A stretch of 37,615 nucleotides of DNA from Wenzhouxiangella sp. (GCA_041685745.1 JAWLFD010000001.1:1-37615); one strand, 5' to 3'. Shown: positions 12,453 to 33,122, numbered from the stretch's first letter. The notes: a model not told the origin generated them from the sequence alone. A program made the numbers and translations.

Positions 12453-12489
12453 GGAGGCTGGCATCTTGATGATCCAGAAGCGACGCGCC

Positions 12490-13008: not shown

Positions 13009-13018
13009 CCGGGCCGCC

Positions 13019-14038: not shown

Positions 14039-15419
<1,381 letters not shown>

Positions 15420-15425
<6 letters not shown>

Positions 15426-17048: not shown

Positions 17049-17939
17049 ATGAAAATCACCCTGGCGCTGCTGCTGATTCGCCTGCTGAGCTGGCTGCCGC
17101 TGCGATTGCTCTACGGCCTGGCGCTGGTCCCGGCCGGCATGCTGTATTGCCTGCCCTGGCGCAAGCACCGGGTGATCCGAACCAATCTGGAGATTGCTTT
17201 CCCGGAATGGACCGCGCGCGAGCGCAAGCGCCTGCACTGGCAAAACCTGGTCGCCATGTCTCGCCTCGTGCTGGAATCCGGCGCGGTCTGGTACTGGTCG
17301 TCGACACGCCTGGACCAGGCGGTTCGGGAAGTGCGGGGCCGGACCCACCTGGCGCGCGCTCGAGCGGCCGGCCGGGGCGTGCTGATGATCGGCGCGCACC
17401 ACGGCAACTGGGAGATCAACGCCCTGCACGTGGGCCTGCACAACGCGTTCAGCGGCCTTTACAAGGCGCCGCGGGACGAGCAGGTCGATCGGGCCGTGAC
17501 CGCGTCGCGCACCCGTTTCGGCAACCGCCTGATCGCTGCCGGCTCCCCGGCCATGCGCCACATGCTGCGGGAGCTGAAAGCCGGAGGAACGGTCGGCCTG
17601 CTGATCGACCAGCAGCCGCGCCAGGGCGAGGGCGTTTTCGCGCCGCTGTTCGGCCGCCCCGCCCTGACCATGACCCTGGTCAGCCGCCTGGCCCGCCGAA
17701 CCGGCTGCGCGGTGATCTTTTCGGATTGCCGAAGGCTTCCGCGCGGACGCGGCTGGCAGCTCGAATATCGGCCGGTGGACCCGGCGGTGGGTGACCCGGA
17801 TCCGGTGGTTGCAGCCACCGCCCTGAACCGCTGCCTGGAAGAACGGATTCGTCAGCAACCCGACCAGTATCTTTGGCTCTACAAGCGGTTTTCGCTGCAG
17901 CCCGAAGGCTGGTCCGACCCCTATCGCGAGCAGCCGTGA
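17049..17939 (+). CDS. Lipid A late acyltransferase (LpxL/HtrB-like) paralogue 1
   Basis: N-terminal TM, HHGNWE (Hx4E), LIDQ, PDQYLWLYKRF. Confidence 0.88.
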   Translation: MKITLALLLIRLLSWLPLRLLYGLALVPAGMLYCLPWRKHRVIRTNLEIAFPEWTARERKRLHWQNLVAMSRLVLESGAVWYWSSTRLDQAVREVRGRTHLARARAAGRGVLMIGAHHGNWEINALHVGLHNAFSGLYKAPRDEQVDRAVTASRTRFGNRLIAAGSPAMRHMLRELKAGGTVGLLIDQQPRQGEGVFAPLFGRPALTMTLVSRLARRTGCAVIFSDCRRLPRGRGWQLEYRPVDPAVGDPDPVVAATALNRCLEERIRQQPDQYLWLYKRFSLQPEGWSDPYREQP

Positions 17940-18841
17940 AAACCGGATCGATCAAAGTCGGCCTGCTGACGATGCTGGCCCGCGTCCTTGGCTGGCTGCC
18001 GCTGCGGGTGGGTCATGCAGCCGCCGTGCCCCTGGCCTGGTTGCTGGGACGGCTGCCCTGGAACAAGCACGGCGTGGTTCAGCGCAACCTCTCGGTCTGC
18101 TTCCCGGAAAAGTCGGCCGCGCAACAGCACAGGCTGGCGCAGCTGCATCGGGTGGAATTGATGCGTCTGGCATCCGAACTGGGTGCCCTGACCGGCTGGT
18201 CCGGCGCGCGCCTGACGCGGCATCTGCCGATGGTGGAGGGCTGGCAGCACGTGCAGGCGGCCCTGGACAAGGGCTGCGGCGTGCTGATGGTCAGCGGACA
18301 CCTGGGCAACTGGGAAATCCTGAACCTGGAGCTGTCGCGACGCATCGACATGGTCACGCTGTACCGCGCCCCGGACGATCCTGCGCTGGACCGGTTCATC
18401 AGCGCCGCGCGGTCACGGTTCGGCGGCCGGGTCGTGGCCAGCGGCAGCGCCGCCATGCGCCTGATGCTGCGCCAGCTTCGCGCCGGCGGAGCGGTCGGCA
18501 TCGCCGCCGACATCCAGCCCAAGCGCGGCGACGGCGTGTTCGTCCCGTTTTTCGGCCTGCCCGCGCTGACCATGACGCTGGTCAATCGGCTGGCAAGAAA
18601 GACCGGCTGCGCGGTGATCTTTTGTCGCGCCCTGCGCCTGCCCCGCGGCCGAGGATGGTCGTTGCACTTCGAGCCCGCGCCCCCCGCGATCTCGGGTCCA
18701 GAGCCGGTAGAGGCACTACAACCGATGAATGAATGGCTGGAAGCGAGCATCCGGGCCGAGCCGGCCCAGTACCTGTGGATCTACAAGCGCTTCAGCCGCC
18801 GGCCGGGCGGCAAGGGCACGCGCTTCTACCCGAAGACCTGA
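17936..18841 (+). CDS. Lipid A late acyltransferase (LpxL/HtrB-like) paralogue 2
   Basis: GTGA overlap with paralogue 1; HLGNWE, PFFG, PAQYLWIYKRF. Confidence 0.88.
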   Translation: MKTGSIKVGLLTMLARVLGWLPLRVGHAAAVPLAWLLGRLPWNKHGVVQRNLSVCFPEKSAAQQHRLAQLHRVELMRLASELGALTGWSGARLTRHLPMVEGWQHVQAALDKGCGVLMVSGHLGNWEILNLELSRRIDMVTLYRAPDDPALDRFISAARSRFGGRVVASGSAAMRLMLRQLRAGGAVGIAADIQPKRGDGVFVPFFGLPALTMTLVNRLARKTGCAVIFCRALRLPRGRGWSLHFEPAPPAISGPEPVEALQPMNEWLEASIRAEPAQYLWIYKRFSRRPGGKGTRFYPKT

Positions 18842-21316
18842 TCAGGTCGAGTCGGCTGCCGGTTCCTTCCAGGCCAGCAGCATGCGCGCAAGCGCAGGCA
18901 GGAGAAGCATGGCGCCGACCATGTTGAAGATGAACATGAAGGCCAGCAGCACGCCCATGTCGGCCTGGAACTGCAGGGCCGAGAACAGCCAGGTACCGAC
19001 ACCGACCGCCAGCGTGATGGCGGTGAAGAACACCGCCTTGCCGGTCAGACGCAGGGTGCGCAGATAAGCCTCGTCGAGGTCGTAGCCATCCTGCATGAAC
19101 GCGCGCATGCGGCTGAAGATGTAGATGCCGTAGTCCACGCCGATACCCACCCCCAGGGCAACCACCGGGAGGGTATTGACCTTCAGGCCGATACCCATGT
19201 AGGCCATCAGCGCATAGGCCATGTAGCTGACCAGGACCAGGGGCAAAACAATACAGGCGGTGCCCAGCACGGTGCGGAACGTGAGCAGACACAGAATGAT
19301 GATGGCCGAGTAGACGTACAGCAGCATCGGCAGCTGGGCGGCTTCGACTTCCTCGTTGGTCGCGGCCATGACGCCGACGTTGCCGGTGGCCAGGCGGAAG
19401 CGCAGGCATTCCTCGCACGGCTCGCCGTCCTGCATGACCAGGTCATCCATGACATCCCCGGCCGGATGGAAATCCAGCTGTTCAACGAAGATCTCTTCGC
19501 GCAGTTCACGCACCGCCCGCACCACCCGAATGATCGTTTCGGCCTTGTGGTCGGTGGTGAACAGCATGATCGGCATGGCGCTGCAGTCTTCATTGAGCAG
19601 CCCGGTCGAGGTCTCGATGTTCTGGAGGTTCTGGCGCATGATGAAGGCGTTGCGCGGCAGCACTTTCCAGCGCAGGTTGCCCTCGTTCCAGCCGGCGTTG
19701 ACCGTCTTGGCCACCATCGGCAGGGAGACCACCTGCTGAACGCCCTCGACGTTGGCCATGCGCCAGGAAAAGCGATCGATGGCCTCCATCACCGCGTGCG
19801 ATTCCGTGCACGCGCCCGGGATGGTTTCGGCGATGATGGAAATCAGGTCGGTACCCAGCGCAAATCGCTCGGCGATCAATTCGGCGTCCTGGTTGTAGCG
19901 AGCCTCTGGCCGCAGCTCGGGAACCCCGGGCTGCGAGTCGCCGATCTGCATGTCCTGGCTCTTGATCCAGGCAAACGCGAACAGGCCGGCACCGACAAGC
20001 ACCGCAATGGTCGCCACGCGGGGTCGGGTGAAACTGGCGATCATGAGCCAGATCACCCCGGTCTTGCGTCCGTTCTCGTACTGGCGTTCGCGGAAGGCTT
20101 CGGGGTTGCGAAGCCGGATGTAGGACAACAGGATCGGCAGCAGCACCAGGTTGGTGAAAATGATGACGGCAACGCCGATGCTGGCCGTAATCGCCAGTTC
20201 CTGGATGATGCGGATATTGATCAACAGAATGGTCAGGAAGCCGATGGTATCGCTGATCAGCGCAATCGACCCCGGCGCCAGCAATCGGGAGAAGGTGCGC
20301 TTGGCCGCTTCGAGACTCGAGATGACCTTGATGTCGTCCAGCCGGTGCCCGTCCTGAGCCAGACCGACCGGCGAATTGCCGCCGAAAAGCTTTTCGGCAT
20401 TCCAGCCGGAGATCATCTGGACACCGTGGCTGACCCCGATGGCGAAGACCAGGAAGGGGGTGAGGATATTCATCGGGTCGATGCCGAAACCCAGCAGGCT
20501 CAACAGACCCAGTTGCCAGATTACCGCCGTGACCGAGCAGACCAGCGGCAGGACCGTCAGCCAGACCGAACGCGAATAGAGAAACAGCAACAGGGCGGTG
20601 ATGACGAAAGCCACGCCGAAATAGACCACGACTCCGCGTGCGCCATCGGCAATGTCGCCGACAATCTTGGCAAAACCGATGATGTGGACGGTATAGCCTT
20701 CTCCCTCGAAGTCGGTGCGAATCTGCTCGAGCTGCCCGGCGACGTCCTGATAATCCAGCGACTCACCGCCGGCCGCGCCCTGCTCGAGAAGGTTGGCCGA
20801 GACCAGGGCGCCGGAGAAATCCTCGGCCACCAGGCGACCCACCTCGCCGGAAGCCACGATGTTGGAGCGCACGCGTTCGAAAGCGTCGGGCGACGGCGAG
20901 AAATCGGCCGGGATGACGTTGCCGCCGGCAAAGCCGTCCTCGACGATCTCCACGAAGCGGACGTTCGGGGTGAAGATCGAGCGCACGCTGGCTCGATCGA
21001 CGCCGGGGATGAAAAATACCCGGTTGCTGATTTCCTCGAAGCGCTCGAAGAATTCGTCGGTGAACATGTCACCGTCTTCGGCCATGAGCGCGACCATGAT
21101 CCGGTTGGCGCCACCGAACTCGCGTTCATACTCCATGAACGTCTGCATGTATTCATGCTCGAGCGGCAACTGCTTGAGAAATCCGGCGTCAACTCGCAGC
21201 TGCGTCAGAAAGAACAGCATCATCGCGGTGCCGACAACGAAGATCAGCAGGACCAGCGGTCGGACCCGAAAGACCGCGTCGGCTGCCCGGCGGCTGAACC
21301 GGCTCGACTCACTCAT
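18842..21316 (-). CDS. MMPL/RND-superfamily inner-membrane transporter (DUF1302/DUF1329-associated type)
   Basis: Two repeats of TM, periplasmic domain, then about 5 TMs; GIGVDYGIY motif; 824 aa; overlaps the YCF48-like gene. Confidence 0.9.
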   Translation of the reverse strand: MSESSRFSRRAADAVFRVRPLVLLIFVVGTAMMLFFLTQLRVDAGFLKQLPLEHEYMQTFMEYEREFGGANRIMVALMAEDGDMFTDEFFERFEEISNRVFFIPGVDRASVRSIFTPNVRFVEIVEDGFAGGNVIPADFSPSPDAFERVRSNIVASGEVGRLVAEDFSGALVSANLLEQGAAGGESLDYQDVAGQLEQIRTDFEGEGYTVHIIGFAKIVGDIADGARGVVVYFGVAFVITALLLFLYSRSVWLTVLPLVCSVTAVIWQLGLLSLLGFGIDPMNILTPFLVFAIGVSHGVQMISGWNAEKLFGGNSPVGLAQDGHRLDDIKVISSLEAAKRTFSRLLAPGSIALISDTIGFLTILLINIRIIQELAITASIGVAVIIFTNLVLLPILLSYIRLRNPEAFRERQYENGRKTGVIWLMIASFTRPRVATIAVLVGAGLFAFAWIKSQDMQIGDSQPGVPELRPEARYNQDAELIAERFALGTDLISIIAETIPGACTESHAVMEAIDRFSWRMANVEGVQQVVSLPMVAKTVNAGWNEGNLRWKVLPRNAFIMRQNLQNIETSTGLLNEDCSAMPIMLFTTDHKAETIIRVVRAVRELREEIFVEQLDFHPAGDVMDDLVMQDGEPCEECLRFRLATGNVGVMAATNEEVEAAQLPMLLYVYSAIIILCLLTFRTVLGTACIVLPLVLVSYMAYALMAYMGIGLKVNTLPVVALGVGIGVDYGIYIFSRMRAFMQDGYDLDEAYLRTLRLTGKAVFFTAITLAVGVGTWLFSALQFQADMGVLLAFMFIFNMVGAMLLLPALARMLLAWKEPAADST

Positions 21317-22400
21317 GGCTCAGTCCGTCCGCACCCGCCAATACCAGCGTGCCGTTCGGCGCAATGAGCACCGATACATAGTCACTGCCCAGGCGGTCTT
21401 CGTCGAGATCGAAGCGCCCGTCTTCGGGTTCGTAGTGCAGGCGGGCAGCACCTGATCCGACCATCAGCGGACGACCCTGAGGATCGATCGTTCCGCCCAT
21501 GAGGGTCGATTCCAGTCCGGTCTCCAGTACCGTCCAGCTGTCGCCGAAGTCATCGCTGCGCTGAACGTGGCCGCGCAGACCGTAGGCCAGCACGGTGTCG
21601 CCTCCCAGATGGAGCAGGCCAAACATCGACCCGGAATAGGGAAAGCGGAAACTCTCCCAGGTCTGCCCGCCGTCGACCGTGCGGAAACCGTAGCCGCGCT
21701 CGGCCGCGATCATCTGGCGGCCCTGGCCAAGATCAAGGAACGCGTTGAGATGGCACTCCATGAACTCGTAGCATCCGCGGTCGAAATCCATGCTGGCGTC
21801 GTAGTATTCGTCGTCTTCCAGGCCTTCATCGACCGGATCACCCTCATCGGCCTGCTCCTCGAGCGCGGCCCGGGCAGCGGCCTCCCAATCGATCGCCTCA
21901 TTGGTGACCATGTCGGCCATGTCCAGGATCTCCCAGTGGCGCCCGGCATCCTCGGTGCGCATGAACAGTCCGTAAGCACCAACGGCGATACCGTTGTCAC
22001 CGTCGAAAAAGTGCACGTCCAGCAGCGGCTGTTCCCAGTCCGGCTCGAAATGCTGCAGGGTCCAGGTCTGGCCGAAATCGTAGCTGTGAATGATGGTACT
22101 GTCGTGACCCACGGCCCAGAGACGCTCATCGGCATAGGCCACGCGGGTCAGGGCTGCCTGAACCGGCACAAACTCCGCCTGGGTCCAGTTGCGACCATCC
22201 TCGGAAAACAGGACATGACCGCGCTCACCCACCGCGACCAGGTTGCGGGGCGTCTGGATGACGTGCAGGATGAGACTCTCCGATGCCAGCGGCGCGTGGA
22301 CCGCCGGACGCGGCAGTTCATGCGGCGGCGCGGCCGCCAGCGGCGCGACCAGCAACAAGACCAGGACAATCGCCTGACACATGCAGACGCGCGCGCTCAT
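21309..22400 (-). CDS. YCF48-related / BNR-repeat beta-propeller periplasmic protein
   Basis: Signal peptide; Asp-box repeats SEDGRNW, SYDFGQTW, TEDAGRHW, TVDGGQTW, SDDFGDSW; AVGERG. Confidence 0.88.
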   Translation of the reverse strand: MSARVCMCQAIVLVLLLVAPLAAAPPHELPRPAVHAPLASESLILHVIQTPRNLVAVGERGHVLFSEDGRNWTQAEFVPVQAALTRVAYADERLWAVGHDSTIIHSYDFGQTWTLQHFEPDWEQPLLDVHFFDGDNGIAVGAYGLFMRTEDAGRHWEILDMADMVTNEAIDWEAAARAALEEQADEGDPVDEGLEDDEYYDASMDFDRGCYEFMECHLNAFLDLGQGRQMIAAERGYGFRTVDGGQTWESFRFPYSGSMFGLLHLGGDTVLAYGLRGHVQRSDDFGDSWTVLETGLESTLMGGTIDPQGRPLMVGSGAARLHYEPEDGRFDLDEDRLGSDYVSVLIAPNGTLVLAGADGLSHE

Positions 22401-22490
22401 GCTCGGCCGTGGATCGTACCGATCGGCAATCCAGGAACGGAGCCGGCGACCGGCATCCGTCCCGCCCGTAGCGGAGCCTTTGCTTCCAAC

Positions 22491-23930
22491 TCAGCGCCGT
22501 CCGCGAACACGCAGCGCCTGCGGCGTGTAGTCACTGGCGCTCAGGTCCTCATCGAAGGTCATGACCGGATCCTGGTTGTCGATGCCGTTGGCGATATAGC
22601 GGCCCGACTGCAGATCCATGGTCGACTCGATCGTCACCCACAGCGTCGGGACGTCGTAGTAGTTGATCGAGTGGGCTTCGGACAGACGCCACATGTTGCC
22701 GCGCTGGTCATAGTGATCGATGATCGCGATCTGGTAGCTGTCGGCATCCAGGTACATGGTCCGGCGGGAATTGATGTGCCGGGTTCCTTCGCGCAGATTG
22801 GCCTCGACGATCCAGACCCGATGCAGTTCGTAGCGCATGTGCTCCGGGTTGAGATGTCCCGGGGTGACCAGATCGTCAGGCTCCAGCTCATCGCTGTGGG
22901 CCTGGTAGGAGTTGTAGGGAATGAACATCTCGCGCTGATCGACGATCTCCCAGGTAAACCGATCCATGGCGCCGTTGAACATGTCGGTCATGTCGTTGGT
23001 TCGCAAGCCGTCGGAGGCCGTGCCCGGGTTGTCGTAGGCGACGTTGGGGGCGCGCCGGACGCGCCGCTGGCCGGGATTGTAGATCCAGGCCTGGCGCGGC
23101 TGCTCGATCTGGTTGAGCGATTCGTGAACCAGCAGGATGTTGCCGGCCAGGCGCGCCGGTGATTCAACCTCCTGGAAGAAGTACAGCAGGATGTTGTTGG
23201 TGTCGGCAATCGTATTGCCTTCGACGTAGTACAGACCCAGGAACTCCTCGCGCAGGCGAATCAGCTGGTAGCTGCCGCGCGCGGTCGGGACCACCTGGTT
23301 GAAATAGCGCCGACCACCCGTGCCCTTGTATTTCATCTTGTGGTTCCAGACCAGCTCGTAGGCATTCTGCGGCAGCGGAAACGGCAGGCCCTCGGCGACG
23401 TTGACCACGCCCTCTCCCCCGGCCACCAGTTGTCCGGTCGAGGCATTGCTTCGGGTGGCCTCGTAAATGCGCTCGGGGAAGGAAGCCGAACGCCGGCTGG
23501 GGTAGATCTTCATCCGGAAGGTCTCCGGATAGCGTTCGAACGCCGCCTTGTGCCCGGCCGAGAGCTGGTCGGCATAGTCCTGGTAGTTCTCGGCGGTGAT
23601 CACGAACAGCGGCTCGTCGTCCGCGTAAGGATCCGGATGGCGGTCGCCGGGCTCGTAGCCGGCCGGCCAGTCATCGCGGCCCAGTCCACCGGTCCACTCG
23701 GGAATGGTGCCGTCGGCATTGCCGGCGCGCAACGAGCCCATCGGCGTGAGGTCCTGGCCGAGACGGGCGATGTTGGCCTCGGTCGCGGGAATGATGTAGT
23801 CGCCTTGTTCATCGGGCACGCCGCCGGTCTGCGCGCTCGCCGAGATCGACAGGGTGAGGACAACGGCAGCCATGGCGCCTTGCCGCGCGGCCTTTCGGCA
23901 GAAGTGGTTGTTCTGCAGTGTCTGCTTCAT
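22491..23930 (-). CDS. DUF1329 family periplasmic protein (soluble copy)
   Basis: GGAG RBS, signal peptide ending ASA-Q; LTPMG..RAGNADGTIPEWTGG, RQAWIYNPGQRRVRRAP, RYELHRVW motifs. Confidence 0.88.
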   Translation of the reverse strand: MKQTLQNNHFCRKAARQGAMAAVVLTLSISASAQTGGVPDEQGDYIIPATEANIARLGQDLTPMGSLRAGNADGTIPEWTGGLGRDDWPAGYEPGDRHPDPYADDEPLFVITAENYQDYADQLSAGHKAAFERYPETFRMKIYPSRRSASFPERIYEATRSNASTGQLVAGGEGVVNVAEGLPFPLPQNAYELVWNHKMKYKGTGGRRYFNQVVPTARGSYQLIRLREEFLGLYYVEGNTIADTNNILLYFFQEVESPARLAGNILLVHESLNQIEQPRQAWIYNPGQRRVRRAPNVAYDNPGTASDGLRTNDMTDMFNGAMDRFTWEIVDQREMFIPYNSYQAHSDELEPDDLVTPGHLNPEHMRYELHRVWIVEANLREGTRHINSRRTMYLDADSYQIAIIDHYDQRGNMWRLSEAHSINYYDVPTLWVTIESTMDLQSGRYIANGIDNQDPVMTFDEDLSASDYTPQALRVRGRR

Positions 23931-24024
23931 GAGTTTTTCGACTCCAGTCTGTTGGAACGGTGCGCTTGACCGTCCGGACAATGGTGTTGGGTCAGCGTAT
24001 CAGCCGACCACGCACGATTTGAAT

Positions 24025-25980
24025 TCATCGACGTCCCCGGGTTCTCAGCGCCTGGGGCGTGTAACTACTCGGACTCAGCGGCACATCGAAGGTATTGACC
24101 GGATCCTGATTGTCCAGCCCGTTGGCGATATAGCGTCCGGACTGCAGATCCATGTGTACTTCGATGGACGACCAGTAGGTCGGTACATCGTAGTAATTGA
24201 TCGCATGCGACTCCGAAGCGCGCCAGAGTTGCCCGCGACCATCGTAATGGTCGATCAGGACGATCTGGTAGCTGTCCTCGTCGAGATAAAAGGTGCGGCG
24301 CGAGTTGATATGGCGAAATTCCGGCCGCAGTTCGGCTTCGATCACCCAGACGCGGTGCAGTTCGTAACGCGTGTAGTCCGGGTTGAGATGACCGGGCATC
24401 ACCAGGTCGTCGGGCGTGACGTCCCCACTGTGGATCCGGTAGGCATTGTAGGGAACGTACATTTCCCGCTTGCCGGCGATGCGCCAGGTGAACCGGTCCA
24501 TGGCGCCGTTGAACATGTCGGTCATGTCGTTGGTACGCAAGCCGTCGGAAGCGGTGCCGGGGTTGTCGTAGGCCACGTTCGGCGCCCGGCGGACGCGGCG
24601 CTGCCCGGGGTTGTAGATCCAGGCCTGGCGCGGTTGCTCGAGCTGGTTCAGGGTTTCATGCACGAGCAGGATGTTGCCCGCCAGCCGGGCCGGTGATTCC
24701 ACTTCCTGGAAAAAATACAGCAGGATGTTGTTGGTGTCTTCAATGGTATTGCCCTCGATGTAGTACAAGCCCAGCAACTCTTCGCGCAGGCGCACCAACT
24801 GATAGCTGCCGCTGGCGGTCGGCGCAACCTGGTTGTTGTAGCGGGTACCGCCGGTACCCTTGTGCTTGAGCTTGTGGTTCCACATCAACTCATAGGCGTC
24901 CTGGGGCAGCGGGAATGGAAAGCCCTCGGCGACATCGGCCACACCTTCACCGTCGGCAATCAACCGACCGGTCGTCGCATTCTCGATGCTGGCCTCGTAG
25001 ACGAATTCCGGAAAAGACGCGCTGCGCCGTGTCGGGTAGACCGCCATCCGATAGGTATCCGGATACCGCTCGAAGGTGGCCACCTGGCCGACGGACAGGC
25101 GATCGCGGTACTGCTGGTAGTTCTGCCCGGTGATCACGTACAGCGGCTCGTCATCGGCAAACGGATCGAGATGGCGGTCTCCCGGCTGGTAGCCGGCCGG
25201 CCAGTCTTCGCGACCCAGACCACCCTCCCAGGGCGGTATCCGACCGTCGGCACTGCCGGCCCGGATGGAACCCATGGGGGTCAGGTCGTCGCCAAGCCGG
25301 GCAATGTTCTGCGGCGTCCGGGCAATAATCACATCCTCATCCAGCGTCGCAGGCGAGGCTTCAGCCTCCGCTTCCGATGCCGTCTGGACCGCCGCCAGCT
25401 GCTCCTCGCGCAGGCGCTCGGCCTCCAGTCGCTCGGCCTCGGCTTCTTCAGCGGCCAGGCGTTCGGCCTCGGCCCGCTCGGCTGCCAGACGCTCGGCCAG
25501 CGCCTGCTCCTCGGCCAGACGCTCGGCTTCCACCCGCTGGGCCTCGGCCTCGGCAGCTCGCGCGGCCGCTTCGCGCTCTTCGGCCAGGCGCGCCTGCTCG
25601 GCCTCTTCAGCAGCCAGGCCCTCCGCCTCTTCGGCGGCTTCCCGAGCCGCCTCTTCGGCCGCCAGCCGTTCCGCTTCGGCCTCGGCGACTGCCTGCCGGG
25701 CTGCTTCCTCTGCCGCCCGCCGCTCAGCCTCGGCCTCTTCTCGCGCTGCCGCCTGCGCAGCCAAACGCTGCTCTTCGGCGTCGCGTTCGGACCGCTCGGC
25801 GGCTTGCCGTTCGGCCTCGGCCTGTTCTTCGGCCTCGCGCGTCGCACTCGCTGCTTCCGCCGACGCCCCGGTCTGATTGCCGTCCGGCCCGCCCGTTTCC
25901 GGCGGGACCGCACAGGCGGTGAAAACCAGCCCGAAGGCGACCAGAACCGCGACCCGCAGCGGGCTCAAGATAATGCTCAT
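24025..25980 (-). CDS. DUF1329 family lipoprotein with long N-terminal Ala/Glu/Arg helical stalk
   Basis: Hydrophobic signal ending in lipobox FTA-C; ~170-aa low-complexity helix; C-terminal ~435 aa highly similar to the adjacent DUF1329. Confidence 0.85.
   Translation of the reverse strand: MSIILSPLRVAVLVAFGLVFTACAVPPETGGPDGNQTGASAEAASATREAEEQAEAERQAAERSERDAEEQRLAAQAAAREEAEAERRAAEEAARQAVAEAEAERLAAEEAAREAAEEAEGLAAEEAEQARLAEEREAAARAAEAEAQRVEAERLAEEQALAERLAAERAEAERLAAEEAEAERLEAERLREEQLAAVQTASEAEAEASPATLDEDVIIARTPQNIARLGDDLTPMGSIRAGSADGRIPPWEGGLGREDWPAGYQPGDRHLDPFADDEPLYVITGQNYQQYRDRLSVGQVATFERYPDTYRMAVYPTRRSASFPEFVYEASIENATTGRLIADGEGVADVAEGFPFPLPQDAYELMWNHKLKHKGTGGTRYNNQVAPTASGSYQLVRLREELLGLYYIEGNTIEDTNNILLYFFQEVESPARLAGNILLVHETLNQLEQPRQAWIYNPGQRRVRRAPNVAYDNPGTASDGLRTNDMTDMFNGAMDRFTWRIAGKREMYVPYNAYRIHSGDVTPDDLVMPGHLNPDYTRYELHRVWVIEAELRPEFRHINSRRTFYLDEDSYQIVLIDHYDGRGQLWRASESHAINYYDVPTYWSSIEVHMDLQSGRYIANGLDNQDPVNTFDVPLSPSSYTPQALRTRGRR
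25357..25863 (-). repeat. Low-complexity coding repeat of degenerate AEAERLAAEE units
   Basis: 169 codons almost entirely A/E/R/Q/L, no Pro and one Gly; recurring GCCGAG/GAACGC/CTGGCC words. Confidence 0.85.
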
Positions 25981-25997
25981 CCCTTGCGCGCCCACGA

Positions 25998-27890
25998 TCA
26001 GAACGAGTAGCTGATCGAGCCCGAAACGAAGTCCCGGTCACCCAGCAGATTGTTGATGCCGGCACCAAAGAAGTTGGTGTAGGCAAAGTCCAGGCGCCAC
26101 TGAGACAGGTAGTTGAGCTGCAGCCCCAGCGTGGCCTGCTTGCGCCCGGCAATGAAGTTGCCACCCGGCCCGGGCGTGACGCCCTGCACATCATGATTGA
26201 ACGCCAGGCGCGGCGTCATGGACCAGGCCGAACCGAACACGTTGTTGTAGGTCGGCGCCACCACCAGGCGATAGCCCCAGCTGAACGCTGTTGCGAATCC
26301 GTCGTTCAGGGTGACCGGATTGCGGCTGTTGCCGCCGGTCAAGCGCGACGGCCCGCCGCCGGTATCGGTGCCGGGACCGTCGAAACGCATGACGGAACGA
26401 TCCGGCAGGTCCCAGAAGTGGGTCGCACCCGCCTCGGCCACGACCGCCACCTGGCTGGCGTTGATCCAGTTGTTCGGGCCGATCAGCTTGGTCAGCGTCA
26501 CCTGGGCCTGAGAGACTTCGCGGCGCTCGTAGCCGGGAATGAATTCACCCGGCGCGTACTGGCCCAGCTGACTGCGGAAGCGATCGTATTCGCTGGGCAG
26601 GGCCGCATTGAGCGGCGACAGGCCGGCGAACAGCAGCTCGACATCGTCGATCTGGATCGGCAGGTTGTCGCGATAGCTGACCTCACCCCCGACCGACCAG
26701 CCGGCGACGGTGGTATTGAAGCTCAGACCGAACAGGTTGATGTCTTCGGGGTATTCGACGATCACCCGCCCGGTCGTGACGTCCGGGCTGGTCACGGCCT
26801 GGCCGGACAACACCGGCAGACGGCTGTGGTAGTTGAGGTAGAACAGCCCGAACTCGGTGTCGTTCAGCCAGGGTGCAAAGTAGCGCAAAGCGATTCCGAA
26901 CTGGCCGGAGTCGCTGGGCTCGTTGTCCTGGGCCCGGCGCGGAAACGCGGCCGAGCACCCCAGAGCCACCAGCTGCGGGGGCAGCCCGGTGTCGCTCAGG
27001 CCGAACTGGCCCTGACGGCAGACCGGGTCGTAGAGGTCGGTGTTGCGCACCGGCTGCGGCACCAGGCCGAAGTTGAGCATGGCATATTGACCCCCCTCGG
27101 TGGCGAAGTCGTTGGTCGCGAAGAACGTTCCCGAGGGCTCGGCCTCGATCGCATCCCAGTCGAACATGACCAGCGCCTCGGCCGACAGGTTCGGCGTGAG
27201 ATCCATGCTGGCCCAGAGCATGTTCAACGGCAGGAAAGCATCCCGCAGCTCGGCGCCCGCAGTGCGCAAGGCGGTGATATCGACGGGGTTGACCGCATTG
27301 ATGCCGCCGGGAATGAACGTGCTCTCACCCCAGCTGACGACCTGCCGACCCAGACGCATCGACAGCAGCCGGCCGCCGGGCATGTCGAAATCGCCGTACA
27401 GGTAGGCGTCGAGCAGTCGCGCCCGCTCCCCAACCCTGTCTTTCGCGTCGTCAGACAGGAAATCCTTGTCGTTGAGGGTAAAGTCGTAGAAATAGTTGCC
27501 GCGAACGAAAGCGCCGAAGTTCCGGTACCCAACCGACAGCTCGGAGGTGACGCGCGCGACGTTGAAGATCGGATCCCACTGATCGAAATTCAGGTTGCCG
27601 TCATCGGAGTTGGCGGAAAAACGGCCGGTGGCTGCCATCTGCTGCTCCAGCGGCGCCTGGACGATCAGCGGGTTGAAGAAGGCCTTGGCCACCAGGTCGT
27701 CGTCGCGTTCGGATGCGCGCACGCCGATCGCGTAACTGAGGGTGGTATCGAGCCGAATGCTGACGTTGTCGGTACTCAGGTCGATGGCGGCGGCCGGGTT
27801 GGCCGCCACGGCCAGAGCGACGGCGCTGGCGAGCAGGCAGGGACGCACGATGCGAGACTGCCGAGGGTCCTGTTTTGCTTGGCGATTCAT
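25998..27890 (-). CDS. DUF1302 family outer-membrane beta-barrel protein
   Basis: Signal peptide; N.DDGNLNF, RLGRQVVSWGESTF, NYHSRLP, YPEDI.LFGLSF, DRDF; terminal YSF beta-signal; AGGGAG RBS. Confidence 0.88.
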   Translation of the reverse strand: MNRQAKQDPRQSRIVRPCLLASAVALAVAANPAAAIDLSTDNVSIRLDTTLSYAIGVRASERDDDLVAKAFFNPLIVQAPLEQQMAATGRFSANSDDGNLNFDQWDPIFNVARVTSELSVGYRNFGAFVRGNYFYDFTLNDKDFLSDDAKDRVGERARLLDAYLYGDFDMPGGRLLSMRLGRQVVSWGESTFIPGGINAVNPVDITALRTAGAELRDAFLPLNMLWASMDLTPNLSAEALVMFDWDAIEAEPSGTFFATNDFATEGGQYAMLNFGLVPQPVRNTDLYDPVCRQGQFGLSDTGLPPQLVALGCSAAFPRRAQDNEPSDSGQFGIALRYFAPWLNDTEFGLFYLNYHSRLPVLSGQAVTSPDVTTGRVIVEYPEDINLFGLSFNTTVAGWSVGGEVSYRDNLPIQIDDVELLFAGLSPLNAALPSEYDRFRSQLGQYAPGEFIPGYERREVSQAQVTLTKLIGPNNWINASQVAVVAEAGATHFWDLPDRSVMRFDGPGTDTGGGPSRLTGGNSRNPVTLNDGFATAFSWGYRLVVAPTYNNVFGSAWSMTPRLAFNHDVQGVTPGPGGNFIAGRKQATLGLQLNYLSQWRLDFAYTNFFGAGINNLLGDRDFVSGSISYSF

Positions 27891-27904
27891 GGTTCGTCTC
27901 CCTG

Positions 27905-30052
27905 TCAGTCAGTCTCGATAAGCGAAGGATTGCCGATCACGACGGCAGCGCCGCCCGATGAGGTCATGCTCGCCGCCTGGCCCTGCATTTCGGCCGTGAC
28001 CGCCGGAGCGGCCGACGGATCCAGCAGCGAACCATGCCCGCCCTGAAGCAGCCGAACCGCACCGCGGATGCCCATCGGATCCTGGGTCGATTCGGCAATC
28101 GAATCCAGGCCCATGACCCGGATCAGAGGCTCGGTGCCCGACAGAGGCGCACCCTGGACCGCGTTGGGCACCACGCTGTCGCCGGCGACCTGCTGCAGCA
28201 GCACGCTGTTGGTCTCGACCGTCAGCGCACCCCAGTTGACCGGGTCGGCGGAATCGACCACGGTTTGCGCGGCCAGCAGGAACTGGGCGAAGTCCGGGGT
28301 CCCGGGTTCGACGCCGGCAGCGGCCAGGCCGGCGCGTATCACCGGTCCGAAAGTTTCCGATCCCGCCAGCAGATTGGCAATGCCGCCGCCGGGCACCGAA
28401 AGCACCCCGTTGTTGACGGTCGGCTCGACGGCCAGGAACGGAATGCCGGCCATGGCGCCCAGGGACAGACCGACGAAATTGATGTTTGATCCGTCCAGGT
28501 CGCCCAGGCCGTCGCCGTCGAGATCGATGAAAGGCACGTTGACGGCAACCGAGGACAGATCGACCTGGGCCTGGCGCAGGTTGTCGCGCGAGGTCAGCAG
28601 GCTCTGCAGGTTGATGAACCACGCCCCGGAGCCATCGATGCTGCCGTCGGGGCCGGGCGCGCCGCTTTCGTTGTCTTGCAGATCCAGATTGAAAGTGCGC
28701 TCTTTGGCAATCTGTCCAAAGGGCGTGTTGCCGATGTAGAGCGGGCTGGTGACGTCGGTGATGCCATGCAGCGGCTTGTCGATGGCCACGACCGCAAAAC
28801 CGATCGAAGCCATGGTGTCGGCCAGCGCCAGCATCTGGCTGCGGTTGCCGGTAATACCGTGCTGGAAGATGACCACTGGCCAACCGGACGCCGGGCGGAC
28901 CCGACCTGAATTTGCATTGGGCACGGTAATGAGCATCGGCGCGGCCTGGCGGGCGCGTTCGACCGGAATCGGGTTGGCGACCGTGACGTTGGTGGATTCA
29001 GGATCCAGACCCAGGCCGTCGAACGGCGGCACGTAGGCACCCGCCTCGGCCTGCCAGAACCCGGTCAGCGGCGCTGACGGATTGTCTTCGCTCGGCACCG
29101 GCAGGAAATACGGCAGCTCGACCACGCCCAGGTACAGATCGGCGATGCCCGGCGAGGCACCGGGCGGCAGCACGTCGGCCGTGGTCAGGCAGGTTCCCGG
29201 CGCGAGGCAGGCCTGAGCCACCTGGGTGCTGGTCGGGCGCAGCGTTGAGCGGATGACCCCCAGGACCGGCGTGATCGCCTGGGTGGTGGCGGTGAACGAC
29301 AGCACGATATCGTCGCGATCGATCCCGGCCGAGGCCGCGGCCATTTCCTGCGCGTTGGTCAGCTGGCGCAACGGCTCCAGCGCCTGGGCCGTGCCGTTGT
29401 CGAGCAGGGGATCGGTGCTGTTGCCCTCGGCGTCGACCAGCGGCTCGGTCCGCTTGGCCAGGAAGTAGGTCTGGGACGGGGTGGCCGGATTGCCGCTGGT
29501 GTCGACGATGCCATCGGTCACCACCGCCATGTAGCCGGTGTTTTCGGCCAGCGGCGTCAGCGGCAGCACGACCACGCCGCTGGGATCTCCGGGATTGGCC
29601 AGCGCAACGTACTCGGCGCCGGGCGTCAGTTCGCGATTGATGCTCTCCACCGCGATCGTGCCGAAGACGAACTGCACCTCGAACATCCGCACCGTGCTGC
29701 CCGGCACCACGCTGTCGGGGTCGATTGCATCGGAAAAGGAAAAACTCCACGGAGCGACCGTACTGAAACCGTCCAGCGCGTTCAGGGCCACGGTCGGGTC
29801 GCCGAAGTCTTCGGGGTCGGCTACGGGAATGTTCAGGGTCAGATCTTCAGATCCGGACCGGAGCAGGTTGTTGGGAAACGGCAGGATGCCCGCCGAAGGG
29901 TCGAACTGGGCCGTCAGCGTGGCGGTGACCGGATCACCGTCGGGCTTTTCGGCCGGGTCGACTTGCGTTGCGCGGTCCACGTCCGAACTACCGCCGCAGC
30001 CGACAAGCCAAAACAGCGCCAGACCCATGGCCGGTACCAGGCGTCTCTTCAT
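27905..30052 (-). CDS. Lipoprotein lipase/phospholipase, Pla-1/cef (VolA-like) alpha/beta hydrolase
   Basis: Lipobox LVG-C; P.PNN, LNALDGFST N-terminal domain; WPVVIFQHGIT, AID.PLHG, RDNLRQ, GLSLG nucleophile, DSVVPN, GTEPL, HGSLLDP; GGAG RBS. Confidence 0.85.
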   Translation of the reverse strand: MKRRLVPAMGLALFWLVGCGGSSDVDRATQVDPAEKPDGDPVTATLTAQFDPSAGILPFPNNLLRSGSEDLTLNIPVADPEDFGDPTVALNALDGFSTVAPWSFSFSDAIDPDSVVPGSTVRMFEVQFVFGTIAVESINRELTPGAEYVALANPGDPSGVVVLPLTPLAENTGYMAVVTDGIVDTSGNPATPSQTYFLAKRTEPLVDAEGNSTDPLLDNGTAQALEPLRQLTNAQEMAAASAGIDRDDIVLSFTATTQAITPVLGVIRSTLRPTSTQVAQACLAPGTCLTTADVLPPGASPGIADLYLGVVELPYFLPVPSEDNPSAPLTGFWQAEAGAYVPPFDGLGLDPESTNVTVANPIPVERARQAAPMLITVPNANSGRVRPASGWPVVIFQHGITGNRSQMLALADTMASIGFAVVAIDKPLHGITDVTSPLYIGNTPFGQIAKERTFNLDLQDNESGAPGPDGSIDGSGAWFINLQSLLTSRDNLRQAQVDLSSVAVNVPFIDLDGDGLGDLDGSNINFVGLSLGAMAGIPFLAVEPTVNNGVLSVPGGGIANLLAGSETFGPVIRAGLAAAGVEPGTPDFAQFLLAAQTVVDSADPVNWGALTVETNSVLLQQVAGDSVVPNAVQGAPLSGTEPLIRVMGLDSIAESTQDPMGIRGAVRLLQGGHGSLLDPSAAPAVTAEMQGQAASMTSSGGAAVVIGNPSLIETD

Positions 30053-30130: not shown

Positions 30131-30160
30131 ATGATATGAACAACGAGTTTTGATTTGCAA
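30131..30160 (-). promoter_or_regulatory. Putative sigma70 promoter of the lipase-DUF1302 operon
   Basis: Minus strand TTGCAA (30160-30155), 18 nt, TATCAT (30136-30131) in the AT-rich divergent region. Confidence 0.45.
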
Positions 30161-30166
30161 GCAACG

Positions 30167-31459
30167 ATGAAGGAAATGTTGAATCTGCAGGGCGCGAAAG
30201 GACTGACAGCGGCGCTCGGCCCCGGTCTGCTGATGGCCGGCGCCGCCATCGGCGTTTCCCACCTGGTGCAGGCGACCCGCGCCGGGGCGGAATACGGGCT
30301 CAGCCTGCTCGGCCTGGTGATCCTGGCCTGCGTCCTGAAATATCCCTTCATCGAGTTCGGCCCACGCTACGCGGCCGCGACCGGGGAGTCCCTGATTCGC
30401 GGCTATCAACGCCTGGGCAGCTGGGCACTGGGATTGTTCACGCTGATCACGCTGGCGACCATGTTCATCATCCAGGCCAGCGTGACCCTGGTCACCGCCG
30501 GCCTGGCGGGCCTGGTTTTCGGCATCGACGCCACGATCACCCAGCTGGCTTTCGGCGTGCTGATCGCCTGTATCGCGGTCCTCGCATTGGGTCGCTTTGC
30601 CGCGCTCGACGGGCTGATGAAAATCATCATCGCCGCGCTGGCCGTCTCGACCACGGCCGCGGTTTTACTGGCATCGGGCACGGCGGCGGACAATGTAACC
30701 CTGAACCCGTTCAGCGGGTTTGACCAGGTCTGGACCGCCGCCGGCGTGGCCTTCGTCCTGGCCCTGCTGGGCTGGATGCCCATTCCCCTTGACGTGGCCG
30801 CGTGGCACTCGCTGTGGACGCTGGAACGGGCCCGGCAGACCGGCGTTGCACCGAGCGTCCGGCACGCGCTTTTCGACTGTCGGCTCGGCTACCTGGGAGC
30901 GACCGCGACCGCGGTGATCTTCCTGGTGCTCGGCGCGCTGGTCATGCACGGCAGCGGCGCGCGTTTCTCGGAGCAGGCGGTGACCTTCTCCGGGCAGCTG
31001 GTCGATCTGTACGCGGCCAACCTCGGCGAATGGTCTCGCTCGCTGATCGCGATCGCGGCCCTGACGGCGATGTTTTCGACCACGCTGGCGGTTACCGACG
31101 CCTACCCGCGCGTGATCCGGGCCATGATCGAAGTCAGCGGCGCAGCCACCGAGGACCGCACGAACCGTCAGCTGGATTTGCACCGGGGACGCTATATCAC
31201 CGCTTTGCTGATCGTCACCATCGGCGCCCTGATCATCATTCTGTACTTCGGCCAGCGCTTCACCCTGCTGATCGACTTCGCCACCACCGTCTCGTTTCTC
31301 GCCGCCCCTGTTCTGGCCTGGCTGAACATTCGCGTGATCACCGCCGATTTCATGCCCGAGGAGCACCGACCCGGTCCCGGCGTAATGCGCCTGGCCTGGA
31401 CGGGATTTGCCTTCCTGGTGATCTTCTGCCTGATCTGGCTGGGCTGGAGAATCCTCTAG
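30167..31459 (+). CDS. NRAMP-like / APC-fold membrane permease, substrate unknown
   Basis: About 11 TMs; LGPGLLMAGAAIGVSHLVQATRAGA, KYPF.EFGPRY, GWMP; lacks the canonical NRAMP DPGN motif; start 30167 or 30176. Confidence 0.8.
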   Translation: MKEMLNLQGAKGLTAALGPGLLMAGAAIGVSHLVQATRAGAEYGLSLLGLVILACVLKYPFIEFGPRYAAATGESLIRGYQRLGSWALGLFTLITLATMFIIQASVTLVTAGLAGLVFGIDATITQLAFGVLIACIAVLALGRFAALDGLMKIIIAALAVSTTAAVLLASGTAADNVTLNPFSGFDQVWTAAGVAFVLALLGWMPIPLDVAAWHSLWTLERARQTGVAPSVRHALFDCRLGYLGATATAVIFLVLGALVMHGSGARFSEQAVTFSGQLVDLYAANLGEWSRSLIAIAALTAMFSTTLAVTDAYPRVIRAMIEVSGAATEDRTNRQLDLHRGRYITALLIVTIGALIIILYFGQRFTLLIDFATTVSFLAAPVLAWLNIRVITADFMPEEHRPGPGVMRLAWTGFAFLVIFCLIWLGWRIL

Positions 31460-31544: not shown

Positions 31545-33122
31545 TCAATCGGACCCGGGCAACCCAGGGTAGCCGGGCGCAAACGGCACGGGCGCGGCCT
31601 GTGCGTTCTGGTAGCGTTCCATGTCTGCCCGCAGGTCGGCTCGCGACTCCAGCCGCCCGCTCTTGAGCGCCTCGAACATCGCCTGGGCCTGCAGATCCAC
31701 CGCATCGTCGAACCGCCCGAGCGCGGCGAACACCATGGCCAGGGTCGCCGAGTTGTCCGCCGTCGGCGCAATCTGGTACACGGACTCGGCCCATTGCAGC
31801 GCTTCCTCCAGCCCCTCGGCCGAGGCCGCCCCGCAGGTCGCGCGGACACGCGCCAGCGCCCCCAGCACATCGCCATCGGTGGGGAACCGGACGCTCAATT
31901 CTTCCAGGGCATTCTCCCCACGACCGCACTCTCCGGCAGCCAGCATGGCCAACGCGGCCCAGAAACCGTAGCGCGCGCTTTCGGCCCGCTCGACGTCGCC
32001 GAACAATCGGCTGAAGCGTTGCTCGGCCTCGGCGAACTCGCCGGCCTCCAATTCAAGAAAGGCCAGCGCCTCGGCCGCCTCGACCTGGTCGGCATCCAGC
32101 GCCAGCGACCTGTCATAAGCGCTTGCCGCCGCCTTGGCCGCGCCCTGCAGCTCGCGGACCTGACCCAGCAGGAAGTGTGCTCTTGCCGCGTCGGCATCCA
32201 GGCCGATCCAGCGCTCGAACGCGGCCGCCGCTTCCTCCAGATCACCCTGGCGAGCGACGACCTGGCCGTAGTTTTCGAGAATCACCGGATCGTCCGGCGC
32301 AAGCTGAGCGGAGATCGCCAGCAGCCGCCGGGCTTCGTCCAGGTCACCGGCATCGGCTCGCTGCAGTCCGATCTCGAGGTAGAACTGGGGCGAACGCGAC
32401 TGTCTCTGAACACGCTCGAGCAAAGGGTCGGCGATCGGCTCGCTGCCCGAACCGATCCGTTCGATCTGTTCACGCGCGCGCTCCACATCGCCCAGCGCTC
32501 GATAAGCCATCGCCAGCGGTTGATGCAGGCGGGTCGCTTCCGGGCTGATCTCCAGCGCCCGTTCAAACCGTTGCGCGGCCGCTGCATGTTCGCCCCGGGA
32601 CAGCAGCACCCGGCCCTGCCCGGCCAGTGCGGCGGGCGCGTCGGGCGCCAGCGCCAGGGCGCGCTCGAAGTCCGGCTCGGCCGCCTCCGGCCGACCCTGA
32701 TCCAGCCGGATCTGGCCCCGCCGGATGTGGGCCACCGGATCGAACGGGTTGCGCTCGACCGCCTGGTCAAGATGCGCCACCGCCTGATCGAGTTCGCCGC
32801 GATCGATCGCCAGCATACCGAGCAGGTAATGCCAATCGGCGACCGACGGATTCAGCTCACGCGCGTTGCGGTAGGCCTGCTCGGCCTGGGCCGAAAAGCC
32901 GTGCGCAAACAGGACGTCACCGAGCCGGCCGTAGGCATCGGAACGCACTTCCGGCGCCGCTTCGGCAGGCGCCGGGATGGCGGCTCGGGCCGCATCAATG
33001 GCCTCCAGCACCGCCTCCGGCGTATCGCCTCGGTCCACGGGGTCGACCTCGCGCAGTTCGGCCCACAGAGGCTGAGAAAGCAACATCGCGAGCAGCAGCA
33101 AGACGATCACCGGCGATTTCAT
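31545..33122 (-). CDS. Exported tetratricopeptide-repeat protein (about 525 aa)
   Basis: ATG overlaps the upstream stop (ATGA); signal peptide; many TPR units (e.g. WHYLLG...AVAHLDQAVERNP). Confidence 0.88.
   Translation of the reverse strand: MKSPVIVLLLLAMLLSQPLWAELREVDPVDRGDTPEAVLEAIDAARAAIPAPAEAAPEVRSDAYGRLGDVLFAHGFSAQAEQAYRNARELNPSVADWHYLLGMLAIDRGELDQAVAHLDQAVERNPFDPVAHIRRGQIRLDQGRPEAAEPDFERALALAPDAPAALAGQGRVLLSRGEHAAAAQRFERALEISPEATRLHQPLAMAYRALGDVERAREQIERIGSGSEPIADPLLERVQRQSRSPQFYLEIGLQRADAGDLDEARRLLAISAQLAPDDPVILENYGQVVARQGDLEEAAAAFERWIGLDADAARAHFLLGQVRELQGAAKAAASAYDRSLALDADQVEAAEALAFLELEAGEFAEAEQRFSRLFGDVERAESARYGFWAALAMLAAGECGRGENALEELSVRFPTDGDVLGALARVRATCGAASAEGLEEALQWAESVYQIAPTADNSATLAMVFAALGRFDDAVDLQAQAMFEALKSGRLESRADLRADMERYQNAQAAPVPFAPGYPGLPGSD

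What the first reader, a model, noticed from the sequence alone, without database searches (positions are those of the whole stretch)
18842..30052. Six-gene operon coupling a surface lipase to a DUF1302-DUF1329-DUF1329-YCF48-MMPL trans-envelope module
Seen: six co-directional genes with short gaps (14, 17, 94 and 90 nt and an 8-nt overlap). Their products cover every envelope compartment: lipoprotein hydrolase, OM barrel, two periplasmic DUF1329 proteins, a beta-propeller and an IM RND/MMPL transporter. Known: DUF1302-DUF1329-YCF48-RND clusters recur in proteobacteria, often beside catabolic genes for hydrophobic compounds, and are mechanistically poorly characterised. Vibrio VolA is a surface lipoprotein lysophospholipase associated with FadL fatty-acid uptake. 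Inference: the lipase as first gene points to the substrate, giving a FadL-independent hydrolyse-and-import pathway for lipids or fatty acids (e.g. from dead or prey cells), consistent with the nearby secreted peptidases.
Basis: partly seen in the sequence, partly recalled or inferred. Interest (0 to 1): 0.85.

Follow-up and report, generated by a model that had tools for sequence, protein, structure and literature searches.

The report
Lipase-led lipid importer with leashed carrier
A fat-cleaving enzyme gene heads a known but unsolved envelope transport system that in many bacteria stands where the usual fatty-acid channel FadL would, so it likely imports fat-digestion products, and here one of its two carrier proteins is predicted to hang from the membrane on a rod long enough to cross the periplasm.

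Summary
All six genes and all five gaps are real. Five genes form the published but unsolved DUF1302-DUF1329-BNR-RND module (AmeABCD type); the first is a VolA/Pla-1 lipase. The scan noted this pairing before on other DNA; I retested it. The lipase precedes DUF1302 in 35 of 35 relatives with upstream DNA. Among 51 Gammaproteobacteria with this lipase, 31 have canonical FadL only, 15 DUF1302 only, 4 both, 1 neither, and the partner switches repeatedly on the lipase tree. This supports import of lipase products in FadL's place (0.5). A relative's published proteome has lipase, barrel and carrier far above BNR and RND, favouring a shuttle over a fixed channel. Against: published readings favour export, that relative does not grow on olive oil, weak FadL-like barrels often coexist, and no transport was measured.

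The parts
27905..30052 (-). VolA/Pla-1-family lipoprotein lipase (715 aa): lipobox LVGC19 with Gly at +2, N-terminal Ig-like region, alpha/beta-hydrolase domain with GLSLG (Ser530), Asp625 or Asp603, His673
   Evidence: TIGR03502 above cut-off; PF12262; S530, D603, D625, H673 invariant in 58 aligned homologs; model pLDDT 92, best fold matches are alpha/beta-hydrolase esterases
25998..27890 (-). DUF1302 outer-membrane beta-barrel (630 aa, C-terminal Phe)
   Evidence: PF06980 E 1.8e-175; barrel fold taken from PMC13499233 passages (predicted 18 strands), not modelled here; no solved relative by sequence
24025..25980 (-). Tethered DUF1329 (651 aa): lipoprotein signal (FTAC23, Ala at +2), long helical stalk, LolA-like carrier domain
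   Evidence: PF07044; lipobox and linker; model; fold match to P. gingivalis LolA3 9tp6, Z 20.2, rmsd 2.8, 237 aligned
25387..25851 (-). Coding stretch of the predicted single helix, residues 44-198 (155 residues, about 23 nm at 0.15 nm per residue)
   Evidence: AlphaFold model, block pLDDT 75-88 over residues 51-190; opposite-charge pairs most frequent at i+4 and i+3
22491..23930 (-). Soluble DUF1329 paralog (479 aa), core 77% identical to the tethered copy
   Evidence: PF07044; identity and tree
22401..22490 (-). 90-nt gap with an imperfect stem-loop; candidate step-down element between the abundant and scarce halves of the operon
   Evidence: z -2.42 for 101 nt but only -1.2 for the first 70 nt; z <= -2 at this position in 17 of 35 loci
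21309..22400 (-). YCF48/BNR beta-propeller periplasmic protein (363 aa), AmeC-like
   Evidence: PF14870 E 2.6e-11, BNR repeats
18842..21316 (-). RND/MMPL inner-membrane transporter (824 aa), AmeD-like; 12 hydrophobic segments; His297 and Asp728-Tyr729 conserved
   Evidence: PF03176; best NCBIfam model HAE3 TIGR00921, 164.8 bits, below its cut-off 351.9; MmpL3 as nearest solved relative, E 8e-10; hydropathy and conservation in 32 homologs

Best explanation
The operon encodes a VolA-type lipase and a DUF1302-DUF1329-BNR-RND module that likely imports the lipase's acyl products in place of FadL: the lipase is predicted to cut lysophospholipids or other acyl esters at the cell surface, the products would enter through the DUF1302 barrel, be picked up by the LolA-like DUF1329 carriers (one soluble, one predicted to be leashed to the outer membrane on a roughly 23 nm helix) and be unloaded at a scarcer BNR-RND station in the inner membrane for FadD. 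Shown here: gene content, order, family membership, conserved catalytic residues, the either/or distribution with FadL, the lipobox and stalk sequence. Predicted: the folds and the continuous helix. Inferred: surface exposure, substrate, direction, shuttling, hand-over to FadD. The gain is probably acyl chains for membranes and a side supply of carbon, not growth on triglyceride.
For: (1) Lipase directly upstream of DUF1302 in 35 of 35 relatives with upstream DNA, over 11 families of the order. (2) In 400 class genomes, 51 carry the lipase: canonical FadL only 31, full-length DUF1302 only 15, both 4, neither 1. Among genomes without canonical FadL, DUF1302 is in 15 of 16 with the lipase against 30 of 199 without. 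Over all 399 counted, both occur together in 9, against 24.9 expected. (3) In 49 of these genomes the lipase lies beside FadL in 21, beside the module in 12, beside neither in 16, beside both in 0. (4) The two kinds of neighbour need 5 changes on the lipase tree; starred branches force at least 4 for the DUF1302-linked label. (5) V. cholerae VolA is surface-exposed, co-transcribed with fadL, and in E. coli supports growth on lysophosphatidylcholine only if FadL is present (PMC3656444, parts 1-2 and passages), so this enzyme family needs an entry channel. (6) DUF1329 has a LolA-like fold. (7) P. putida needs the four module genes for Tween 20 and three of them for butyl stearate (bioRxiv 2020.07.04.188060 section 6). 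(8) In the AB-CW3 proteome table the first three genes read 0.07-0.54 and move together (2 to 3 times higher on Staphylococcus cells or peptone than on casein), while YCF48 and MMPL read 0.009-0.024 (PMC7691419 Table 1); its table has no 'FadL' or 'TodX' entry but lists expressed FadD and beta-oxidation enzymes.
Against: (1) No transport or enzyme assay exists for this operon. (2) The AmeABCD deletion was read as loss of export (PMC6394551), and Price et al. proposed export of a cell-wall component with pleiotropic phenotypes. RND proteins are generally exporters (established knowledge). (3) AB-CW3 did not grow on olive oil and makes the proteins without added lipid. (4) The exclusion depends on the FadL threshold (E <= 1e-50), which I set after seeing the two-humped scores: at Pfam's own cut-off 43 of 49 lipase genomes have a PF03349 match, including 8 of the 14 'DUF1302 only' genomes, and 10 of 14 module-bearing relatives outside the genus have one. 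(5) In P. putida the module defect was specific to esters compared with laurate and myristate, so free fatty acid may not be the cargo. (6) 35 of 54 DUF1302 genomes have no lipase of this family, and the avoidance of FadL also holds among lipase-free genomes (5 together, 15 expected), so part of the signal may be lineage history. (7) Genomes are related, so the Fisher values overstate.
Confidence: 0.5

Rival explanations
1. [quoted passage not shown]
For: AmeABCD deletion lowers tolerance to limonene above 5 mM and slightly raises Nile Red accumulation (PMC6394551); RND family; PMC6449761 passages suggest a solvent-stress role; Tween 20 is a detergent.
Against: In the same paper the mutant grows poorly on limonene as sole carbon and is rescued by acetate, and dye efflux was almost identical in both strains, which also fits an uptake defect. 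Efflux does not explain why the module replaces FadL beside the lipase, nor far more barrel than pump.
Confidence: 0.14
2. Envelope housekeeping: lipase and module remove and recycle the cell's own misplaced or damaged outer-membrane lipids, a retrograde route parallel to Mla and PldA.
For: High, near-constitutive levels on lipid-poor media and no growth on olive oil; pleiotropic mutant phenotypes in Shewanella and Pseudomonas; near-universal in this order outside two families (DUF1329 in 101 of 121 genomes).
Against: MlaC is present in this genome and a PldA-family fragment was found; the lipase's other partner, FadL, serves outside fatty acids.
Confidence: 0.14
3. Import first, cut second: the barrel and carrier take in intact monoacyl esters, and the lipase faces the periplasm.
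For: P. putida needs the module for esters but not for the matching free acids; surface exposure is shown only for V. cholerae VolA.
Against: The lipase passes the VolA family cut-off and keeps the same sorting signal; VolA reached the surface even in E. coli.
Confidence: 0.12
4. Lipoprotein delivery: RND, LolA-like carrier and barrel form a dedicated path that puts the lipase itself on the surface.
For: The carrier's best fold matches are LolA-family proteins; the first gene is a lipoprotein.
Against: 32 of 51 lipase genomes have no full-length DUF1302; VolA surfaces in E. coli without the module; 35 of 54 module genomes have no such lipase.
Confidence: 0.06

Closest known systems
AmeABCD of Castellaniella defragrans (PMC6394551; parts 1-3 of 5 read)
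   Same: DUF1302, DUF1329, COG4447/YCF48 and HAE3-like RND in the same order
   Different: Here a VolA-type lipase leads the row, DUF1329 is doubled and one copy is a lipoprotein on a long helix; AmeABCD lies in a monoterpene island and was read as an exporter
PP_0765/PP_0766 + PP_2018/PP_2019 of Pseudomonas putida and Sama_1588-1591 of Shewanella amazonensis (bioRxiv 2020.07.04.188060 section 6; bioRxiv 072470 passage; PMC10866462 section 12; PMC13499233 passages)
   Same: Same four families, cofit, needed on fatty esters; predicted DUF1302-DUF1329 and DUF1329-BNR-RND complexes
   Different: No VolA-type lipase is mentioned in what I read; split in two loci in Pseudomonas; no tethered carrier mentioned
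VolA-FadL of Vibrio cholerae, vca0863/vca0862 (PMC3656444; parts 1-2 of 6 and passages read)
   Same: Same lipase family, lipoprotein signal with non-Asp +2, GXSXG motif, short gap to an outer-membrane barrel gene
   Different: The barrel is DUF1302, not FadL, and periplasmic carriers and an inner-membrane RND are added; the lipase comes first
Lol pathway (LolA carrier) and Mla pathway (MlaC shuttle); details recalled
   Same: A soluble periplasmic lipid carrier moving between an outer-membrane site and an inner-membrane motor; LolA-like fold shown for DUF1329
   Different: No ABC transporter in the operon, the motor is an RND; the carrier has an extra N-terminal region and, in one copy, a membrane leash

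Membership tests
AmeABCD-type DUF1302 module | DUF1302 outer-membrane protein (AmeA) | tested here: met
   PF06980 585.5 bits
AmeABCD-type DUF1302 module | DUF1329 LolA-superfamily periplasmic protein (AmeB) | tested here: met
   PF07044 487 and 480 bits; LolA-like fold
AmeABCD-type DUF1302 module | COG4447/YCF48 propeller (AmeC) | tested here: met
   PF14870 43.8 bits, cut-off 27
AmeABCD-type DUF1302 module | 12-TM RND of the HAE3 branch (AmeD) | tested here: inconclusive
   12 hydrophobic segments; HAE3 is the best NCBIfam model but 164.8 bits is below its cut-off 351.9; no tree with AmeD itself
AmeABCD-type DUF1302 module | Gene order A-B-C-D in one row | tested here: met
   B is doubled
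AmeABCD-type DUF1302 module | Export of hydrophobic compounds as claimed for AmeABCD | not testable with these tools
   needs transport assays
VolA/Pla-1 phospholipase family | TIGR03502 score above the curated cut-off | tested here: met
   413.5 against 383.9
VolA/Pla-1 phospholipase family | Lipoprotein signal with non-Asp at +2, and GXSXG with catalytic Asp and His | tested here: met
   LVGC19-G20, GLSLG; S530, D603, D625, H673 invariant
VolA/Pla-1 phospholipase family | Surface exposure and lysophospholipase activity | not testable with these tools
   shown only for V. cholerae VolA
VolA-FadL system | fadL in the same operon | tested here: not met
   no PF03349 match in the genome (82% complete); neighbours are an Nramp-like gene and DUF1302
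Lol lipoprotein-sorting pathway | LolCDE ABC transporter and LolB as partners of the carrier | tested here: not met
   none among the six genes or their neighbours; only the carrier fold is shared

The most novel reading that the evidence does not exclude
The DUF1302 module is a second, FadL-independent fatty-acyl import machine of Gram-negative bacteria, an RND-driven importer that has repeatedly taken FadL's place beside VolA-type lipases; and in Wenzhouxiangellaceae, Marinicellaceae-like genomes and a third family its LolA-like carrier is fixed to the outer membrane by a single helix as long as the periplasm is wide, swinging cargo from abundant barrels to rare inner-membrane pumps: a leashed shuttle, between the free shuttle of Mla and the rigid bridge of Lpt.
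Probability: 0.3. Interest if true: 0.85.

Novelty: new variant of a known kind. Interest (0 to 1): 0.6.

Why it matters
Full-length DUF1302 was found in 54 of 401 Gammaproteobacteria sampled and is near-universal in P. aeruginosa (PMC13499233 passage), yet cargo and direction are unsettled: export, esterase and 'novel transport system' have all been proposed. The swap with FadL beside one lipase family turns this into a single plate test in E. coli lacking fadL. If import holds, it gives a second route for long-chain acyl uptake and an RND that works inward. The tethered carrier is a natural experiment on how lipid crosses the periplasm: where it is the only carrier, free diffusion cannot be required, and stalk length can be varied.

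Tried and rejected
Complex prediction of DUF1302 (36-630) with the lipase's catalytic part (300-700): no verdict, score 0.00 in two runs, controls not folded; it says nothing for or against binding, and the lipase's N-terminal part was left out for size. RNA runs: two salt-lake metatranscriptomes with shares of 0.12 and 0.10 gave short contigs only, none of the 16 listed pieces bridging a junction; no evidence on co-transcription or habitat. Sequence searches of solved structures found nothing for the lipase, DUF1302 or DUF1329. Promoter and terminator scan was at chance level (2 against 1.9; 10 against 6.7); the sigma-70-like site at 30160-30131 is only a candidate. The first DUF1329 tree lost six long rows to a bad trimming pattern; redone. 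A single origin of the tethered form: long forms held as one clade are rejected (p-AU 1e-40), but one gain followed by several losses is not excluded. Long DUF1329 frames in G100, G204, G479, G454 and G451 are read-through of upstream DNA, not stalks. Neighbours of the 16 unlinked lipases show no third barrel among 45 of 117 nearby frames scanned. Literature: searches for DUF1302+DUF1329, six module names, VolA+FadL, LolA-like+MMPL, P. aeruginosa locus tags, VolA/Pla-1/DUF1302 pairs and FadL-independent uptake listed no paper that links a VolA-type lipase with DUF1302 or describes a tethered DUF1329; the library lacks most subscription papers, and bioRxiv supplements were closed and could bear on this. 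The 'esterase' reading of DUF1302/DUF1329 is rejected by the barrel and LolA-like folds.

Full report
Observation. The six genes are on the minus strand at the stated places, with gaps of 14, 17, 94 and 90 nt and an 8-nt overlap. Family scans give a VolA/Pla-1 lipase above the TIGR03502 cut-off, DUF1302, two DUF1329, a YCF48/BNR protein and an MMPL-type RND. The nearest named homologs are from Wenzhouxiangella (lipase 93% to W. limi; DUF1329 core 96%). The genome is 82% complete.

What is known. The four-family module is in print. In Castellaniella it is AmeABCD, read as a monoterpene exporter from a deletion mutant (PMC6394551, parts 1-3 of 5 read). Price et al. found the four genes cofit and proposed export of a cell-wall component (bioRxiv 072470, one passage). 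In P. putida all four are needed on Tween 20 and three on butyl stearate, compared with laurate and myristate (bioRxiv 2020.07.04.188060, section 6). Two papers predict a DUF1302-DUF1329 complex, one also a DUF1329-BNR-RND complex (PMC10866462 section 12; PMC13499233 passages). V. cholerae VolA is a surface lipoprotein lysophospholipase co-transcribed with fadL and needs FadL to feed E. coli (PMC3656444, parts 1-2 and passages). Seven searches listed no paper joining the lipase to the module. Earlier notes of this scan report the same pairing on other DNA, two with the FadL-replacement idea; I took that idea as a lead and tested it.

Linkage. Of 40 relatives, 37 have a DUF1302 match. In the fetched loci the lipase is the gene directly upstream in 35; the other two (G004, G039) end at a contig edge. 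FadL (PF03349) is not found in this genome and passes the cut-off in 1 of 24 genus relatives, a genome with no DUF1302 match; of the three relatives without a DUF1302 match, two carry canonical FadL. Against this, 10 of 14 module-bearing relatives outside the genus have some PF03349 match over the cut-off, nine of them weak (E 1e-12 to 2e-29).

Class survey. In one draw of 400 Gammaproteobacteria plus this genome, the lipase family matched 51, full-length DUF1302 54 and FadL at E <= 1e-50 185. I dropped G073 (unpublished) and G236 (unscored). Among the 51 lipase genomes, 31 have FadL only, 15 DUF1302 only, 4 both and 1 neither; that one has a divergent FadL-like gene beside the lipase. These counts include this genome and G035. 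Without canonical FadL, DUF1302 is present in 15 of 16 lipase genomes and 30 of 199 others. By family, 16 are FadL only, 10 DUF1302 only, 5 mixed or both, 1 neither. In the 49 other genomes the lipase lies beside FadL in 21, within 5 kb of the module in 12, near neither in 16, near both in none. On a quick tree of 63 lipases the two neighbour types need 5 changes, so this is not one inherited event. Caveats: the FadL threshold was set after seeing the scores; at Pfam's cut-off 43 of the 49 have a match; the avoidance is also seen without the lipase (5 together, 15 expected); kin inflate the statistics.

The enzyme. It has the lipobox LVGC with Gly at +2, the nucleophile motif GLSLG, and invariant Ser530, Asp603, Asp625 and His673 in 58 homologs. 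The model is confident (pLDDT 92) and matches alpha/beta-hydrolase esterases. Activity, substrate and surface exposure are inferred from VolA.

The two carriers. The C-terminal 290 residues of DUF1329 match LolA-family structures (9tp6, Z 20.2, rmsd 2.8, 237 aligned), which fits an acyl-chain carrier. The first copy adds a lipobox (Cys23, Ala at +2) and a linker modelled as one helix over residues 44-198, about 23 nm, near the width of the periplasm (20-25 nm, recalled). This is not peculiar to the window: 427 DUF1329 proteins of 577 residues or more were found, and of the best 120 my patterns picked out lipobox plus linker in 107 (median 198 residues, 79% Ala/Glu/Arg/Gln/Lys); 11 of the 13 misses still showed a lipobox. 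Among 17 genus relatives with the region intact, 7 have both forms, 5 only the long and 5 only the short. In a second draw, 11 of 14 family genomes have the long form and in 7 it is the only DUF1329 match, two of these being single-contig genomes. Similar stalks occur in two other families of the order. The two cores here are 77% identical and belong to separate genus-level paralog groups. So a membrane-anchored carrier can stand in for the soluble one. Which membrane holds the anchor is inferred from the +2 rule only.

Levels. The supplementary table of Wenzhouxiangella AB-CW3 (PMC7691419; sections 16 and 19, passages, and table parts 1, 51, 55 plus searches read) shows the same row: a 717-aa lipoprotein hydrolase, DUF1302, a 481-aa secreted protein, YCF48, MMPL. 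I take the first as the lipase and the third as a single short DUF1329 from position and length, not from sequence. Values on Staphylococcus, peptone and casein are 0.216/0.235/0.071, 0.321/0.437/0.151, 0.428/0.545/0.192, then 0.009/0.010/0.009 and 0.012/0.024/0.010. The first three are abundant and move together; by my division the carrier is 21 to 57 times the propeller. Spectral counts under-report membrane proteins, but the soluble propeller is low too. A stem-loop follows the last DUF1329 in 17 of 35 loci and could cause the step; in this window it is weak. Unequal amounts fit many capture sites feeding few unloading stations through a shuttle, and fit a one-to-one channel poorly. The same strain lists FadD and beta-oxidation enzymes and no FadL entry, but did not grow on olive oil, and its proteomes differ little between substrates. 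This genome has five AMP-binding enzymes, two 3-hydroxyacyl-CoA dehydrogenase matches and MlaC.

Mechanism. Most likely (0.5): surface lipase frees acyl chains from lysophospholipids or similar esters; DUF1302 admits them; DUF1329 carries them, free or leashed; BNR-RND unloads them into the inner membrane for FadD; the use is membrane building and minor carbon. Rivals: efflux (0.14), recycling of the cell's own envelope lipids (0.14), import of intact esters with a periplasm-facing lipase (0.12), surface delivery of the lipase (0.06). No step of transport is shown.

Verdict. Real and conserved; a new variant of a known, unsolved system. The module is AmeABCD-type by four tested features, the enzyme is a VolA-family member, and the pair works like VolA-FadL without being it. 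The either/or with FadL makes the direction question testable in one E. coli experiment, and the tethered carrier is, in the searches made, undescribed. Interest 0.6.

Noticed in passing
L134:2131-4725 (G160), L135:1947-4757 (G082), L136:1677-4250 (G240): DUF1329 fused behind about 440 residues of what reads like a signal peptide plus TPR-type helical repeats (read by eye, not scanned), in three class genomes that hold 4 to 9 DUF1329 copies: another long N-terminal extension of the carrier.
   Followed up: partly
L057:9224-11044 (G032), L147:6372-8249 (G449), L132:3143-5140 (G497), P0115-P0125: Lipoprotein-plus-helical-stalk DUF1329 also occurs in two other families of the order, with Ala/Lys/Glu or Gln-rich stalks instead of Ala/Glu/Arg; one such protein is named from a Marinicellaceae bacterium.
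   Followed up: yes
after the last DUF1329 stop in L035-L084 and others: A strong stem-loop, often with a short T run, follows the last DUF1329 in 17 of 35 loci, against 1, 1 and 2 after the lipase, DUF1302 and BNR stops; those controls are mostly coding sequence, so the contrast is partly intergenic against coding.
   Followed up: yes
window 16983-18841 (+): Two tandem lipid A acyltransferase (LpxL-like) genes converge on the operon, the second stop abutting the RND stop with no gap; kept in four close relatives, not in most of the genus.
   Followed up: partly
window 30155-31459 (+): An Nramp-like transporter is divergently placed 102 nt from the lipase start and keeps this place in most genus relatives with DNA there.
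   Followed up: partly
G240, G160, G204, G322, G421: Some genomes carry 4 to 9 DUF1329 and up to 8 DUF1302 matches, suggesting paralog sets for different hydrophobic cargoes.
   Followed up: no
L094, L107, L114, L119, L123, L127: Unlinked VolA-type lipases in several families lie directly upstream of ftsY and/or an ABC ATPase gene; in G100 the lipase lies between acyl-CoA dehydrogenase and enoyl-CoA hydratase genes.
   Followed up: no
window 31545-37611 (-): Row of TPR proteins and an FG-GAP/ASPIC-UnbV protein; the frame at about 34976-36808 was not scanned.
   Followed up: no
window 10883-15425 (+) and 2595-10079 (-): glnA, a DUF4124 gene, ntrB and ntrC; further left an M14 peptidase, fnr, hemN and an S9 peptidase: ordinary neighbours.
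   Followed up: no
L105 (G252) 5050-7183: The lipase gene there is in two frames (534 and 223 aa) while the module is whole; frameshift or assembly error.
   Followed up: no
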